From the sequence record PV636259.1: a DNA stretch of 50,255 bases, one strand, 5' to 3'. Positions 11,992 through 48,770 of this stretch are shown here, piece by piece (positions within the stretch are counted from its first letter, which is position 1; each line of letters starts with the position of its first letter). Origin of the DNA: a phage. The translations under genes were made by a program, and so were the position numbers. A model generated the notes under the pieces. That model did no database searches and was not told the origin of the DNA. It was given only the letters and a program-made list of their open reading frames with translations.

Positions 11992-12010
11992 TAGCACTAA
12001 TTGCTAAAAC
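11992..12010 (+). promoter_or_regulatory. Operator/promoter motif copy (TAGCACTAATTGCTAAAAC); hairpin AAGGGCA...TGCCCTT encloses GGTAGAAT
   Basis: Read directly; abuts the TAA stop of 11545..11991. Confidence 0.6.
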
Positions 12011-42884: not shown

Positions 42885-42904
42885 TAGCACTTTTTGCTAA
42901 AAAC
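42885..42904 (+). promoter_or_regulatory. Operator/promoter motif copy (TAGCACTTTTTGCTAAAAAC) upstream of the helicase
   Basis: Read directly in the 93-bp divergent gap. Confidence 0.55.
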
Positions 42905-44983: not shown

Positions 44984-45396
44984 TTACAGATAAAGGCGAT
45001 TACTTAGAGTTTTACGAGCGAGATCCTAGCGACACTAGAAAGGAGGACGCTCATCAGGTAGATTGCGTTTCCTGGCTGAAATACAACTTCCCACACCTTC
45101 TATTTTGGCACACTGTAAATGAAGGTGAAAAAACAATCACTTCAGCACTCAGGGATGAGCAGGCTGGATTACTTAAAGGTGTGTCAGATTTCGTTATCCT
45201 GATTGGTGTAAACTCACGTTACCCGTTCGCAGCTATCGAACTCAAACGGGTTAATAAGTCCGGCAAGGGAAAGGCGTCACCAGTCAGCGATAAGCAAAGG
45301 GAGTTTCTCAAAAAGGTTCGGGATCGCGGTGGATTCTCTGCCGTTGCATACGGATTTGAGCAATTCAAGATCGCAATATACGAAATGATGAAATAG
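44980..45396 (+). CDS. VRR-NUC-type nuclease (138 aa)
   Basis: GVSDFVIL...AAIELKRVNKSGKGKASPVSDKQREFLKKV pattern; ATGA overlap with helicase stop. Confidence 0.55.
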   Translation: MITDKGDYLEFYERDPSDTRKEDAHQVDCVSWLKYNFPHLLFWHTVNEGEKTITSALRDEQAGLLKGVSDFVILIGVNSRYPFAAIELKRVNKSGKGKASPVSDKQREFLKKVRDRGGFSAVAYGFEQFKIAIYEMMK

Positions 45397-45411
45397 CACT
45401 TTTTGCTAAAC
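45394..45411 (+). promoter_or_regulatory. Operator/promoter motif copy (TAGCACTTTTTGCTAAAC) + hairpin + CATTAT + CTCACCAAAACGAGAGG leader
   Basis: Read directly; TAG stop of the nuclease gene embedded. Confidence 0.6.
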
Positions 45412-46177: not shown

Positions 46178-46425
46178 TGAGCGAAAAAATGGTTCCTGTT
46201 AAATTAACTGAGCAAGGTTTATGGCTTCTTTATCGCGCTACGTGCTGCGAGATTATGGAACGAAACGGATTGAATCAGGATGTTATTGGTTGCGATCTGT
46301 GGGAGTTCACTAGTTCTCTTGATATGTCTTTCGATGAGATAAAAAATGAATACATAGAGAATTGGCCTTCAATCATACAGAAAGACGTGGAAGAACTTAA
46401 AGCTGACACGATCTTACAGCACTAA
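46174..46425 (+). CDS. Hypothetical protein (83 aa)
   Basis: Track ORF 46132..46425 trimmed to the ATG overlapping the dam stop; stop TAA lies inside the next motif. Confidence 0.5.
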   Translation: MMSEKMVPVKLTEQGLWLLYRATCCEIMERNGLNQDVIGCDLWEFTSSLDMSFDEIKNEYIENWPSIIQKDVEELKADTILQH

Positions 46426-46435
46426 TTGCTAAAAC
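46418..46435 (+). promoter_or_regulatory. Operator/promoter motif copy (AGCACTAATTGCTAAAAC) + hairpin ACCCGGCGAAAGTCGGGT + ATAGTT + CATCAAAACGAAATGAGG leader
   Basis: Read directly. Confidence 0.6.
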
Positions 46436-46701: not shown

Positions 46702-46951
46702 ACGAGAGGTTTGGGAGCACGCGAAGGAATGCGGAATCTCAGACGATATAGCACTAATAGCGAAATATTTCGATATAAAGGATGTTAGCATTATCTCAAA
46801 TGGCAAGATTTCATTTATGGAAGATATGCCGAGAAAAATGCATAGAGTGCCAGCAACTCCGTCACTTGAGTTTTATCGTGAAGAGGGAAAGAGAATTGAG
46901 AGAGAACGAAAAGCAGCAAAGAACAACAAGCCTTCCAGGCTTAAACATTAA
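46679..46951 (+). CDS. Hypothetical protein (90 aa)
   Basis: Track ORF; overlaps the previous gene by 23 nt across an A7 run. Confidence 0.45.
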   Translation: MLIKKQGKREVWEHAKECGISDDIALIAKYFDIKDVSIISNGKISFMEDMPRKMHRVPATPSLEFYREEGKRIERERKAAKNNKPSRLKH

Positions 46952-47183
46952 CGAAGACGATTACCAGACCATATGGATCGGAAAGAAACAAGTTAAGAAA
47001 ATCCCTTTCTCTGATTGGTTGCCTCCTGACTTCGTTAACGTGCTTTGCACTATTGGGATCGAGCAAGAGTTGCATATAGGTTATTACTCACCAGGTAGAA
47101 ACAGCATGATGCTTGAGGTTGATGGAAAACTGGTTGAGTTTAAATCTTCAGATCTAGGATTCTGGTTAAAGGCTGTGGCATGA
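46782..47183 (+). CDS. Hypothetical protein (up to 133 aa); true start unresolved
   Basis: Track ORF overlapping 46679..46951 by 170 nt in the +1 frame; the downstream part looks protein-like. Confidence 0.35.
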   Translation: MLALSQMARFHLWKICREKCIECQQLRHLSFIVKRERELRENEKQQRTTSLPGLNINEDDYQTIWIGKKQVKKIPFSDWLPPDFVNVLCTIGIEQELHIGYYSPGRNSMMLEVDGKLVEFKSSDLGFWLKAVA

Positions 47184-47261
47184 GACTTTATTTTGCTGTA
47201 GTATTAACACCGCTAATTTCATTTTCAGTAATGTATTTCATTATCATGTAAGGATTAAAAT

Positions 47262-48413
47262 ATGTCACAAGCTAAAATCACTACCGAGCAACTTATCGAA
47301 GAGCGCATGAGCGGCCTTACACTTCGCGAGATTGCGGAAAAGTACGGTATGCACATCCGCACAGTTGAAGCGCGTCACGCAAAACTTGCAAAAGAAGGCC
47401 ACTTCCACGGCAACGAGCATGTTGCTAAAAACGTTCCAGAAGGATTCATGGTAAAAGGTACATCTACTATGATTCGCGGTGATGGGACGGAAGTTGTTCG
47501 ATGGGTTAAGACCGATCAGGACCGTGAGAAGATTGCGGCAATGATGGAAGCGGCGCGTATTGCATTCTGTGAAGACCTGCCGCGAGCAAAGCCAACTGAG
47601 CTACTAACCTCACAAGGTCTTACAACAGCGATTGGTAAGCTGGCACTCTATCCGGTATTCGATCTTCATATCGGTGCGCTTGCTCATAAGCATGAATGCG
47701 GAGAGAACTATTCCACCGACGTAGCGGAAAAAGTGCTTAGCGACTTCTTTAATTACGCGATCGATATTGCTCCGAACGCAGAGAAGGCAGTTCTTTTAAT
47801 CGGCGGTGACTTCCTTCACTCGGACGGTCTTGATGCTGTTACCCCTGCAAGTGGTCACGTTCTGGATCAGGATTCACGATATGCAAAATTGGTGCATGTA
47901 GCTATTAGATCTGTTCGTCGCGCTATCGACAAAATGCTACTGAAACACAAGGAAGTCGAAGTCCAGGTTATCGAAGGGAACCACGACCAGGCAGGGATGA
48001 TTTGGCTACGCGCTGCAATGTCGGCATATTATGAAGACGAGCCGCGAGTATTCGTTGACGTTAGTCCTATGATTCTGCATAAGACCCGCTGGGGAAATAC
48101 CTTGTTGGGATACACTCACGGTCACACGATGAAAAAGGCAGACACGCGACTTGCAGCGATGGCGGCAGACTTCCGTGCAGACTTCGGTGAAAGCAAATAC
48201 GTGTATACTCACAGCGGACACTGGCATCATCAAACAATCACAGAGCACTCGCTTGGTATTGATGAAGTGCACGGTCAGTTAGGCGCGAAAGATGCATACG
48301 CAGCACGCGGAGGGTGGCGCTCATATCGCCAGGCGGCTGTAATTGTTTACGATAAGCAGTTTGGGGAAATAGGTCGCTTCATCTATCGTCCAGAAATGAC
48401 AGGATCGCACTAA
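47262..48413 (+). CDS. Calcineurin-like metallophosphoesterase with N-terminal helix-turn-helix segment (383 aa)
   Basis: Phosphoesterase motifs DLHIG, GGDFLHSDG, EGNHD, YTHGH, THSGHWHH; N-terminal LTLREIAEKYGMHIRTVEARHAKL HTH-like segment. Confidence 0.65.
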   Translation: MSQAKITTEQLIEERMSGLTLREIAEKYGMHIRTVEARHAKLAKEGHFHGNEHVAKNVPEGFMVKGTSTMIRGDGTEVVRWVKTDQDREKIAAMMEAARIAFCEDLPRAKPTELLTSQGLTTAIGKLALYPVFDLHIGALAHKHECGENYSTDVAEKVLSDFFNYAIDIAPNAEKAVLLIGGDFLHSDGLDAVTPASGHVLDQDSRYAKLVHVAIRSVRRAIDKMLLKHKEVEVQVIEGNHDQAGMIWLRAAMSAYYEDEPRVFVDVSPMILHKTRWGNTLLGYTHGHTMKKADTRLAAMAADFRADFGESKYVYTHSGHWHHQTITEHSLGIDEVHGQLGAKDAYAARGGWRSYRQAAVIVYDKQFGEIGRFIYRPEMTGSH

Positions 48414-48424
48414 TTGATAAAAAC
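48406..48424 (+). promoter_or_regulatory. Operator/promoter motif copy (variant CGCACTAATTGATAAAAAC) + hairpin GCCCGAAGGGATTCGGGC + ATAGTA + CACATCGAAAC leader
   Basis: Read directly. Confidence 0.5.
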
Positions 48425-48475
48425 GCCCGAAGGGATTCGGGCATAGTAACCACATCGAAACAAAGAGGCTATATC

Positions 48476-48652
48476 ATGAAGCTAGTTAAGTGCATCCGAA
48501 ATGACTCCAAGACACTTCCATTCCGTGTAAATCAGATCTATAGTGTTGGTTATGATTTCTGTGGGGGATTATTTGAGATTTACGACGGGCGAGGTTCAGC
48601 AATCCAAGCGCCTCTGAACGGTCACTACCTAGAATTTATTGCGATAGATTAA
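48476..48652 (+). CDS. Small protein (58 aa)
   Basis: Hand-found ORF MKLVKCIRNDSKTLPFRVNQIYSVGYDFCGGLFEIYDGRGS... after AGAGGCTATATC RBS; below track cutoff. Confidence 0.4.
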   Translation: MKLVKCIRNDSKTLPFRVNQIYSVGYDFCGGLFEIYDGRGSAIQAPLNGHYLEFIAID

Positions 48653-48770
48653 CAATATCATTCATCACCTTACAGGCTGGCATGATTTACATGCTGGCCT
48701 TTTTGCGTTGTATCAAATAAATTTGAAGGTTAAAATCGACTCACTTGTTCAAAAAATATATGGTGAGATT

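What the first reader, a model, noticed from the sequence alone, without database searches (positions are those of the whole stretch)
47262..48413. Metallophosphoesterase fused to an N-terminal HTH-like segment
The 383-aa protein carries the full set of calcineurin-like phosphoesterase motifs (DxH, GDxxD, GNHD, then His-rich motifs), preceded by about 60 residues resembling a helix-turn-helix. Unusually for this arm, its upstream region is AT-rich without an operator cassette. Phage phosphoesterases of this fold act as Ser/Thr/Tyr protein phosphatases, Mre11-like nucleases or cyclic-nucleotide phosphodiesterases; the last would be an anti-defence activity against cyclic-nucleotide signalling systems. 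The fusion to a DNA-binding-like module is not something I can assign to a described family.
Basis: partly seen in the sequence, partly recalled or inferred. Interest (0 to 1): 0.55.

Follow-up and report, generated by a model that had tools for sequence, protein, structure and literature searches.

The report
DNA-binding metallophosphoesterase nuclease of T1-like phage
This gene of a T1-like coliphage encodes a real, widely conserved but never tested phage enzyme, a DNA-binding helix-turn-helix joined to a nuclease-type metallophosphoesterase, which most likely cuts up DNA (probably the host's) to feed phage nucleotide supply; I found no support for it being an anti-defence signal-degrading enzyme.

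Summary
Window 47262-48413 (+) encodes a 383-aa protein with all metallophosphoesterase (MPE) motifs (D134-x-H136, G182-D183-FL-H186, G239-N-H-D242, H286, G319-H-W-H322). It has an N-terminal LuxR/sigma-r4-like HTH (residues 8-44). The upstream 78 nt are 25.6% GC and lack the repeated cassette found 21 times in the window.

The window is a Tunavirus (T1-like) genome. The protein is not an orphan: it matches PHROG 704 at full length (E 2e-156), RefSeq calls it "DNA repair exonuclease", and 2032 of 50,697 phage records plus many prophages carry a homologue. No characterised member was found.

The HTH, a beta-hairpin/helix segment and the MPE form an old, conserved architecture: 128 of 150 diverse cluster representatives keep the HTH. 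Fold and profile comparisons place the catalytic domain nearest the nuclease-type MPEs (PolD DP1, Mre11/SbcD), below that for cNMP phosphodiesterases, and far from PPP phosphatases. There is no Rad50 partner and no capping domain.

Its gene neighbours are repeatedly lysis genes and nucleotide-pool enzymes (dNMP kinase, dNMP phosphatase, MazG, PNK). The best analogue is phage T5 A1, the driver of host DNA degradation, whose relatives also carry an N-terminal HTH.

Most likely it is a DNA-tethered, stand-alone nuclease for DNA breakdown and nucleotide salvage. Moderate interest.

The parts
47262..48413 (+). Gene for the 383-aa HTH-metallophosphoesterase (PHROG 704; 'DNA repair exonuclease' in RefSeq relatives)
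   Evidence: ORF; PHROG 704 E 2e-156 over residues 4-380; 99% identical protein in phage DELF2
47250..47254 (+). Shine-Dalgarno-like AAGGA, 7 nt upstream of the ATG
   Evidence: Read directly from the sequence
47283..47393 (+). N-terminal three-helix HTH (residues 8-44), LuxR/GerE / sigma-70 region 4 type
   Evidence: AF2 helices 8-16, 21-27, 32-44; sub-threshold Sigma70_r4_2/HTH_23 hits; family-level GerE, Sigma70_r4, HTH_8 hits; GerE structure E 0.011; homologous segment in 128 of 150 representatives
47430..47573 (+). Conserved beta-hairpin plus helix (residues 57-104; consensus VPxGxxVKGxSTLY..DG..QWVKT) between the HTH and the catalytic domain; role unknown
   Evidence: Strands 62-71 and 77-86, helix 88-104; P59, G75 and W81 at least 90% conserved; present in 141 of 150 representatives
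47628..48395 (+). Metallophosphoesterase catalytic domain (residues 123-378) with motifs I-V: D134/H136, D183/H186, N240/H241/D242, H286, H320/H322
47184..47261 (+). AT-rich (25.6% GC) intergenic spacer without the repeated cassette and without a sigma-70-like + strand promoter match
   Evidence: Composition; promoter scan; repeat search
46749..46765 (+). Nearest upstream copy of the repeated cassette motif; inferred start of the unit that holds ORF 46896-47183 and the MPE gene
   Evidence: Motif search; family D2. Its role as a unit boundary is inference
46896..47183 (+). 95-aa ORF of unknown function directly upstream (DELF2 gp51 equivalent); probably co-transcribed
   Evidence: DELF2 annotation mapped onto the window; ORF frame. 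Co-transcription is inferred
48405..48464 (+). Downstream copy of the ~58-nt cassette (motif plus GC-rich hairpin 48423-48444); its first bases overlap the last codons and stop of the MPE gene
   Evidence: Family D1/D2; motif search; hairpin

Best explanation
The gene encodes a stand-alone, metal-dependent DNA nuclease of the Mre11/SbcD/PolD-DP1 type. An N-terminal LuxR/sigma-r4-like HTH, probably helped by the conserved beta-hairpin segment, tethers it to DNA. It works without a Rad50/SbcC ATPase. It is made from the transcription unit just upstream of the lysis genes. Its most likely job is to break down DNA that is not being packaged, chiefly the host chromosome, into oligo- and mononucleotides. 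Phage nucleotide-pool enzymes (PNK, dNMP kinase, dNMP phosphatase, MazG-type) then handle these products. This would make it the T1-group functional counterpart of phage T5 A1. Shown here: the complete active-site motifs, the fold, the conserved HTH fusion, the absence of a partner, the distribution and the gene neighbourhoods. Inferred: DNA as substrate, nuclease chemistry, host DNA as the target, timing of expression and the link to salvage.
Confidence: 0.5

Rival explanations
1. Same chemistry, different target. The enzyme is a phage DNA replication, recombination or repair nuclease that trims ends, hairpins or branched concatemer DNA before packaging. It would be a Rad50-independent Mre11/SbcD analogue.
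For: Mre11/SbcD/DP1-like fold and motifs. It lies adjacent to DNA ligase in Campylobacter phage CP39, to primase in Vibrio phage VAP7, and to a Dda-like helicase and RNase H in a T4-like contig. It lies directly upstream of the terminase genes in Dhillonvirus SECphi18. It is present in temperate phages. The RefSeq name is 'DNA repair exonuclease'.
Against: The T1-like genome already encodes a RecE-like exonuclease VIII, an Erf annealing protein and a VRR-NUC nuclease. The gene's position is not conserved relative to replication or recombination modules, but it recurs beside lysis and nucleotide-pool genes. There is no Rad50-like partner.
Confidence: 0.25
2. It is an anti-defence phosphodiesterase that destroys cyclic (oligo)nucleotide immune signals of CBASS, Pycsar, Thoeris or type III CRISPR.
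Against: The nearest folds and profile hits are nucleases. A conserved DNA-binding HTH in 128 of 150 representatives has no obvious role for a soluble-signal hydrolase. The neighbours are nucleotide-pool and DNA enzymes, not known anti-defence genes. There is no significant PADLOC hit. No paper links this family to signal degradation. The gene is persistent in 39 of 42 Tunavirus genomes, unlike typical fast-turnover anti-defence genes (PMC13164509).
Confidence: 0.07
3. It is an end-healing phosphoesterase (2',3'-cyclic phosphodiesterase or 3'-phosphatase) working with the phage polynucleotide kinase on damaged RNA or DNA ends, or it is a protein phosphatase like lambda PPase.
For: It lies directly next to PNK in Webervirus and phage AAS23 (PMC8004638). 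The bacterial PnkP phosphatase domain and lambda PPase belong to the same superfamily.
Confidence: 0.06
4. It is primarily a transcription factor, either a late-gene or host-shutoff regulator using the sigma-r4/LuxR-type HTH. The MPE domain would serve as a sensor or accessory module.
For: The HTH is of the sigma-70 region 4 / LuxR type. The gene lies just upstream of the lysis genes, as lambda Q does. T5 A1 is reported to interact with RNA polymerase.
Against: All catalytic residues are invariant over very deep divergence, which argues for selection on enzymatic activity. Short family members lack the HTH altogether, for example the Campylobacter phage protein encoded by a 954-nt (about 317-codon) gene. 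The gene's position relative to late genes varies: it is downstream of lysis in Dhillonvirus and in prophages.
Confidence: 0.05

Closest known systems
Phage T5 A1 (pre-early protein, predicted metallophosphatase; Demerecviridae)
   Different: Sequence homology is not demonstrable: hhalign probability is 19% over 61 columns and 15% with T5 A1 alone. A1 has 556 aa, with about 300 residues before motif I. A1 is expressed pre-early from first-step-transfer DNA, whereas this gene sits beside the lysis genes. T5 itself has a separate DNA-binding partner, A2, which shows no similarity to this HTH.
Mre11 / SbcD nucleases (T4 gp47, E. coli SbcD, archaeal and eukaryotic Mre11)
   Different: There is no C-terminal capping domain; the protein ends right after the MPE core. 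There is no Rad50/SbcC gene in the genome. It has an N-terminal HTH and beta-hairpin instead. Sequence identity is only 12-19%.
PolD small subunit DP1 (archaeal 3'-5' proofreading exonuclease)
   Different: There is no DP2 catalytic partner and no polymerase gene at all in the T1-like genome. Identity is 13%, and no OB domain was detected.
Mycobacteriophage A10ZJ24 Gp48 / cluster A phage MPE (PMC12287305)
   Same: It is a phage MPE with the five motifs. It has phosphodiesterase activity and disrupts host genomic DNA, which supports phage replication.
   Different: It is a short protein with motif I at residue 10, so it has no HTH or hairpin module. It is expressed early. I did not test direct homology.
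Pseudomonas putida MPE (PdeM, ligase-associated nuclease; PDB 6NVO)
   Different: It is about 200 aa, has no HTH, and is a bacterial repair-operon protein. The NCBIfam score is 11 bits against a cut-off of 150.

Membership tests
PHROG 704 ('DNA repair exonuclease') | Significant full-length match to the family HMM | tested here: met
   E 2.1e-156, 522 bits, residues 4-380 on profile positions 2-389 of 390
Calcineurin-like metallophosphoesterase superfamily | Five motifs in order: DxH, GDxx(D/H), GNH(D/E), H, GHxH | tested here: met
   DLH at 134, GDFLH at 182, GNHD at 239, H286, GHWH at 319; these are invariant across 60 relatives
Calcineurin-like metallophosphoesterase superfamily | Beta-sandwich MPE fold | tested here: met
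Calcineurin-like metallophosphoesterase superfamily | Pfam PF00149/PF12850 gathering score | tested here: not met
   15.5 and 16.3 bits against cut-offs of 21.5 and 27. Only 13 of 60 relatives hit PF00149 at E<0.01. The family is too divergent for the Pfam models
Mre11/SbcD nuclease family | Mre11-type motif I (DxHxG) and motif II (GD-hh-H) | tested here: met
   DLHIG and GDFLH; family consensus TDxHxGM and GDFLH
Mre11/SbcD nuclease family | C-terminal capping domain after the phosphodiesterase core | tested here: not met
   The model ends at residue 383, directly after the last core strands 358-375
Mre11/SbcD nuclease family | Rad50/SbcC SMC-like ATPase partner encoded in the genome | tested here: not met
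   The ten ORFs of at least 330 aa in the window correspond, by my comparison of lengths and order, to DELF2 genes annotated as two helicases, terminase, portal, protease, tape measure, tail proteins, exonuclease VIII and this gene
Mre11/SbcD nuclease family | Mn-dependent exo/endonuclease activity on DNA | not testable with these tools
   Needs purified protein
PPP Ser/Thr protein phosphatases (lambda PPase type) | GDxVDRG and GNHE signatures; close fold match | tested here: not met
Class III cyclic-nucleotide phosphodiesterases (CpdA/Rv0805/GpdQ) | Closest fold or profile relationship within the superfamily; cNMP hydrolysis | tested here: inconclusive
T5 A1 family | Detectable homology over the catalytic domain | tested here: not met
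   Profile-profile hhalign probability is 19%, with 61 columns around motif III
T5 A1 family | N-terminal HTH followed by an MPE domain (architecture) | tested here: met
   A1 relatives P0342, P0344, P0345, P0372 and P0384 have HTH_23, HTH_38, CENP-B_N or HTH_7 at residues 3-48; this protein has its HTH at 8-44
LuxR/GerE / sigma-70 region 4 HTH | Match to HTH models or structures | tested here: inconclusive
   This protein alone is sub-threshold: Sigma70_r4_2 at 14.8 bits against 25.7. Relatives reach Sigma70_r4_2 at 1.5e-9 and GerE at 2.4e-8. The family profile matches the GerE structure at E 0.011. DNA binding was not tested

The most novel reading that the evidence does not exclude
The enzyme is more than a bulk DNase. 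It would be a DNA-anchored phosphodiesterase made late and carried in the virion, which acts at the start of the next infection. There it would either shred host DNA before defence genes can respond or destroy nucleotide immune signals. A homologue was detected by mass spectrometry in purified particles of phage AAS23. This would define a widespread (about 4% of phage genomes) host-takeover or anti-defence effector class that shares its architecture with T5 A1.
Probability: 0.1. Interest if true: 0.7.

Novelty: new variant of a known kind. Interest (0 to 1): 0.4.

Why it matters
Classical work holds that phage T1 degrades host DNA (my recollection, not checked here), but I know of no gene in the T1 sequence that has been experimentally tied to it. 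This protein is the best candidate in the genome. It has a nuclease-type metallophosphoesterase core and a built-in DNA-binding domain. It belongs to a family found in about 4% of sequenced phages and in many prophages, and no member has been studied. If it is the counterpart of T5 A1, then the "HTH plus stand-alone Mre11-like nuclease" would be a general phage solution for host-DNA destruction and nucleotide salvage. That would bear on generalized transduction frequency, on host shut-off, and on defence systems that sense genome degradation, such as those that sense m6dAMP. It would also correct a generic "DNA repair exonuclease" label now propagated through thousands of phage annotations. 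If it is merely a repair or recombination accessory nuclease, the finding is ordinary.

Tried and rejected
1. Direct sequence search of the PDB with the single protein gave only a chance DsbA hit.
2. NCBIfam gave only sub-threshold sigma-70 and PdeM hits.
4. Homology to T5 A1 gave hhalign probabilities of 15% (single sequence) and 19% (profile-profile). Homology to T5 A2 gave 0.9%. Homology is therefore not claimed, only shared architecture.
5. PADLOC gave no meaningful defence-system match.
6. Nine literature searches found no paper characterising this family. The Sorek-lab escaper study has no mutation in the SECphi18 homologue in its main text. The phage Tn-seq preprint does not cover T1-like phages. 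I could not access the classical T1 genetics literature on gene 2.5 and host DNA degradation.
7. The search for related loci with the 60-sequence alignment failed because no conserved stretch was found. It worked with a 10-sequence alignment.
8. The look-up of encoding contigs on two long variants gave one uninformative 1.8-kb contig and one T4-like context, so I did not pursue it.
9. The sigma-70 promoter scan found no + strand promoter in the AT-rich spacer.
10. The T1 SH3-like protein and the conserved 115-aa downstream ORF of prophages show no similarity.
11. I considered and rejected a Rad50-dependent complex, because there is no partner gene.

Full report
**What the window is.** The region around the finding is 94.8% identical in DNA to Escherichia phage vB_EcoS-DELF2 and about 94% identical to many other Tunavirus (T1-like, Drexlerviridae) genomes. 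Gene order around the finding is helicase, VRR-NUC, Dam-type methyltransferase, three small ORFs, the gene in question, a 58-aa ORF, then holin, endolysin and spanin. The window is therefore essentially a complete T1-like phage genome.

**Checking the observation.** ORF 47262-48413 (+) is 383 codons with an ATG start, and AAGGA lies 7 nt upstream.

- The translation contains DLH (134), GDFLH (182), GNHD (239), HGH (286) and GHWH (319).
- In an alignment of 60 relatives at only 31-66% identity, D134, H136, G182, D183, N240, H241, H286 and H322 are invariant. H186, D242 and H320 are at least 90% conserved.
- An AlphaFold2 model built on that alignment has mean pLDDT 93.1 and pTM 0.83. Every motif lies at the C-terminal end of a beta strand, as expected for the metallophosphoesterase (MPE) fold.

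**The N-terminal part.**

- The N-terminus forms three helices (8-16, 21-27, 32-44).
- For this protein alone the HTH hits are sub-threshold: Sigma70_r4_2, HTH_23 and HTH_24.
- Relatives reach Sigma70_r4_2 at 1.5e-9, GerE at 2.4e-8 and HTH_8 at 8.7e-6. The family profile's best hits in the PDB are GerE/LuxR-type DNA-binding domains.
- An HMM of this segment recovers 128 of 150 cluster representatives that are mutually less than 50% identical. A second conserved segment, the beta-hairpin 62-86 plus helix 88-104, is recovered in 141 of 150.
- The non-catalytic N-terminal part is thus about 120 residues, not 60, and the fusion is ancient rather than a local accident.

**The upstream region.** The spacer 47184-47261 is 25.6% GC against 45.5% for the window. 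It lacks the repeated motif TAGCACTnnTTGCTAAA, which occurs 21 times in the window against 0.13 expected. That motif forms a ~58-nt cassette with a GC-rich hairpin. Motif copies flank the unit at 46749 and 48405, and the latter overlaps the gene's stop codon. No sigma-70-like + strand promoter was found in the spacer. The gene is therefore probably co-transcribed with the 95-aa ORF 46896-47183. That is an inference.

**Is it an undescribed family?** No.

- The protein matches PHROG 704 ("DNA repair exonuclease") at full length, E 2e-156.
- RefSeq uses that name in T1-like phages.
- tblastn finds homologues in 2032 of 50,697 phage records. These include Drexlerviridae, Jerseyvirus, Dhillonvirus, Casjensviridae, N4-like roseophages, Ackermannviridae, Campylobacter myoviruses and Vibrio phages.
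- An exhaustive HMMER search finds 4621 clusters at 50% identity.
- A scan of one genome per bacterial species returns 80 loci. By my count from the contig-length column, about 30 lie inside contigs larger than 200 kb, including complete chromosomes, so they are prophages of alpha-, beta- and gammaproteobacteria.
- What is missing is any experimental work. Nine literature searches found no study of a member. There is no Pfam or NCBIfam model that captures the family.

**Placing the catalytic domain.**

| Comparison | Result |
|---|---|
| Foldseek vs PDB | Generic MPE hits only |
| Family profile vs PDB sequences: T. maritima Mre11/SbcD | E about 0.25, motifs I-II |
| Family profile vs PDB sequences: P. 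putida nuclease MPE | E 0.44, motif III |

- At E<10 the family profile reaches no other solved MPE.
- Motif I (DxHxG) and motif II (GDFLH) are of the Mre11 type. The PPP signature GDxVDRG is absent.
- None of these lines is decisive alone, because the Z margins are modest and the E-values are not significant. All point the same way, to a nuclease-type MPE.
- The protein is not a member of the Mre11/SbcD family proper. It has no capping domain.
- The genome has no Rad50/SbcC gene. All ten ORFs of at least 330 aa match, by length and order, the annotated DELF2 genes.

**Genomic context.** The gene's position varies, but two themes recur.

*Lysis genes:*
- In Tunavirus it lies directly upstream of them.
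- In Dhillonvirus SECphi18 it lies directly downstream, just before the terminase.
- In Rhodobacter phage RcBigEagle it follows holin and endolysin.
- I clustered ORFs from the 66 bacterial loci of at least 9 kb. Forty have an endolysin cluster within a few kb, mostly upstream.

*Nucleotide-pool enzymes:*
- Of the 66 loci, 29 have one or more just downstream on the same strand. These are dNMP kinase (17 loci), HD-type dNMP 5'-phosphatase (10), nucleoside deoxyribosyltransferase-like (8) and MazG-like pyrophosphatases (6 and 5). The identities come from PHROG matches.
- Webervirus has MPE-PNK-dNMP kinase-lysis, as noted for phage AAS23 (PMC8004638).
- Ruegeria phage V11 has MPE-methyltransferase-dNMP phosphatase.
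- An N4-like roseophage places it among thymidylate synthase, dCTP deaminase and a dATP/dGTP pyrophosphohydrolase.
- A T4-like contig places it beside a Dda-like helicase, RNase H and MazG.

*Other contexts:* DNA ligase in Campylobacter phage CP39 and primase in VAP7.

*Caveat:* many prophage loci are related, so the counts are not independent events. The variety of enzyme types and phage groups still argues for a real association with DNA and nucleotide turnover.

**Closest functional precedents.**

[quoted passage not shown] It is necessary and sufficient for host chromosome degradation in vivo, and it is encoded in the same pre-early region as the dNMP phosphatase Dmp (bioRxiv 10.64898/2026.04.02.716235).
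- I tested homology with T5 A1. hhalign gives only 15-19% probability, restricted to the stretch around GNHD..WL, so homology is not shown.
- However, A1 relatives at about 46% identity, found with the word-indexed search, carry an N-terminal HTH (HTH_23, HTH_38, CENP-B_N or HTH_7) at residues 3-48. This is the same architecture as here.
- Mycobacteriophage A10ZJ24 Gp48 is a short MPE without an HTH. It has phosphodiesterase activity and disrupts host genomic DNA (PMC12287305).
- Phage MPEs that destroy host DNA are thus an emerging theme, and the T1-group protein fits it.

**Most likely mechanism.**

- *Shown:* an intact binuclear-metal active site, a nuclease-like MPE fold, a conserved DNA-binding module, no ATPase partner, and association with lysis and nucleotide-pool genes.
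- *Inferred:* the HTH, and perhaps the hairpin, anchors the enzyme on duplex DNA. The MPE domain hydrolyses DNA phosphodiester bonds as an exo- and/or endonuclease. The main target is host DNA. The products are channelled by PNK, dNMP kinase or phosphatases into or out of the phage dNTP pool. T1-like phages encode no polymerase and no nucleotide-synthesis genes in the annotation, so salvage is plausible.
- My confidence is about 0.5 for this package, and higher (about 0.65-0.7) for "acts on DNA as a nuclease".

**Rivals.**

- The chief rival keeps the chemistry but changes the target to phage replication, recombination and packaging intermediates (0.25). It is supported by the ligase, primase and terminase contexts and by presence in temperate phages. 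It is weakened because T1-like phages already have exonuclease VIII, Erf and VRR-NUC.
- A single proteomic observation, the AAS23 homologue detected in purified virions (PMC8004638), leaves open that the protein is packaged and acts at entry. This is the basis of the novel case.

**Novelty and interest.** The gene is real, conserved and already catalogued under a generic name. The window's copy is 99% identical to database proteins. What this analysis adds is fourfold:

- the HTH-hairpin-MPE architecture is family-wide;
- the family is a Rad50-independent, capping-domain-less variant of nuclease-type MPEs;
- it is linked to nucleotide-pool genes;
- it shares its architecture with the T5 A1 family.

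I rate it a new variant of a known kind, with moderate interest (0.4). It is a good, directly testable candidate for the T1 host-DNA-degradation function, but a specialist would not find it very surprising.

Noticed in passing
window, 21 sites, e.g. 11992-12008, 42885-42901, 45394-45410, 46417-46433, 48405-48421: The motif TAGCACTnnTTGCTAAA occurs 21 times (0.13 expected by chance). Its strand changes in blocks along the window. In the right arm it heads a ~58-nt intergenic cassette with a GC-rich hairpin and a conserved CAxCAAAACGA tail. It looks like a phage-specific promoter/operator or RNA-processing element ('TTGCTA' resembles a -35 box, but the hairpin fills the spacer).
   Followed up: partly
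window 48476-48652 (+): A 58-aa ORF between the MPE gene and the holin matches phrog_4788 at full length. PMC13164509 describes it as a stand-alone SH3 (DUF7244) protein proposed to assist lysis. It is separated from the holin by a strong terminator-like hairpin at 48674-48700 and from the MPE gene by a cassette copy, so which module it belongs to is open.
   Followed up: partly
window 46896-47183 (+): A 95-aa ORF of unknown function lies directly upstream of the MPE gene and is probably co-transcribed with it, since no cassette or promoter lies between them. I did not check whether it co-occurs with the MPE in other phage groups.
   Followed up: no
P0342, P0344, P0345, P0372, P0384 (relatives of T5 A1; L008:1706-3376): Relatives of the T5 host-DNA-degradation protein A1 (about 46% identity, about 530 aa) carry an N-terminal HTH at residues 3-48 that T5 A1 itself lacks by Pfam. 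T5 encodes a separate DNA-binding protein, A2, nearby. This suggests A1-type nucleases are generally DNA-tethered.
   Followed up: partly
Prophage loci, e.g. L034:7717-8064, L067:9480-9827: A conserved ORF of about 115 aa with no PHROG match lies 0.5-3.3 kb downstream of the MPE gene, on the same strand, in 15 of 66 bacterial loci. It shows no similarity to the T1 SH3-like protein.
   Followed up: partly
P0196 (L009:18-1634) and P0218 (L010:6605-8053): These are longer family variants. P0218 (482 aa, T4-like contig) has two HTH-type segments before the MPE domain. P0196 (538 aa) has a ~190-aa N-terminal extension that by eye resembles a ParB-like N-terminal domain, but it has no Pfham hit; more precisely, it has no Pfam hit.
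   Followed up: partly
L002:4759-7694 (Salmonella phage vB_SenS-Ent1): In Jerseyvirus the MPE gene sits in a small opposite-strand island inserted among tail genes. The island also holds a superinfection-immunity ORF, an HNH endonuclease and an anti-repressor, giving a moron-like context unlike that in T1-like phages. An HNH endonuclease also follows the MPE gene in Vibrio phage 98E28-3.
   Followed up: no
PMC13250531 (literature): Drexlerviridae and Demerecviridae are the phage groups most sensitive to daunorubicin, with an abortive 'mutual destruction' phenotype. For T5-like phages the paper attributes this to toxic pre-early proteins such as A1. No culprit is named for Drexlerviridae, so the HTH-MPE protein would be a candidate.
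   Followed up: no
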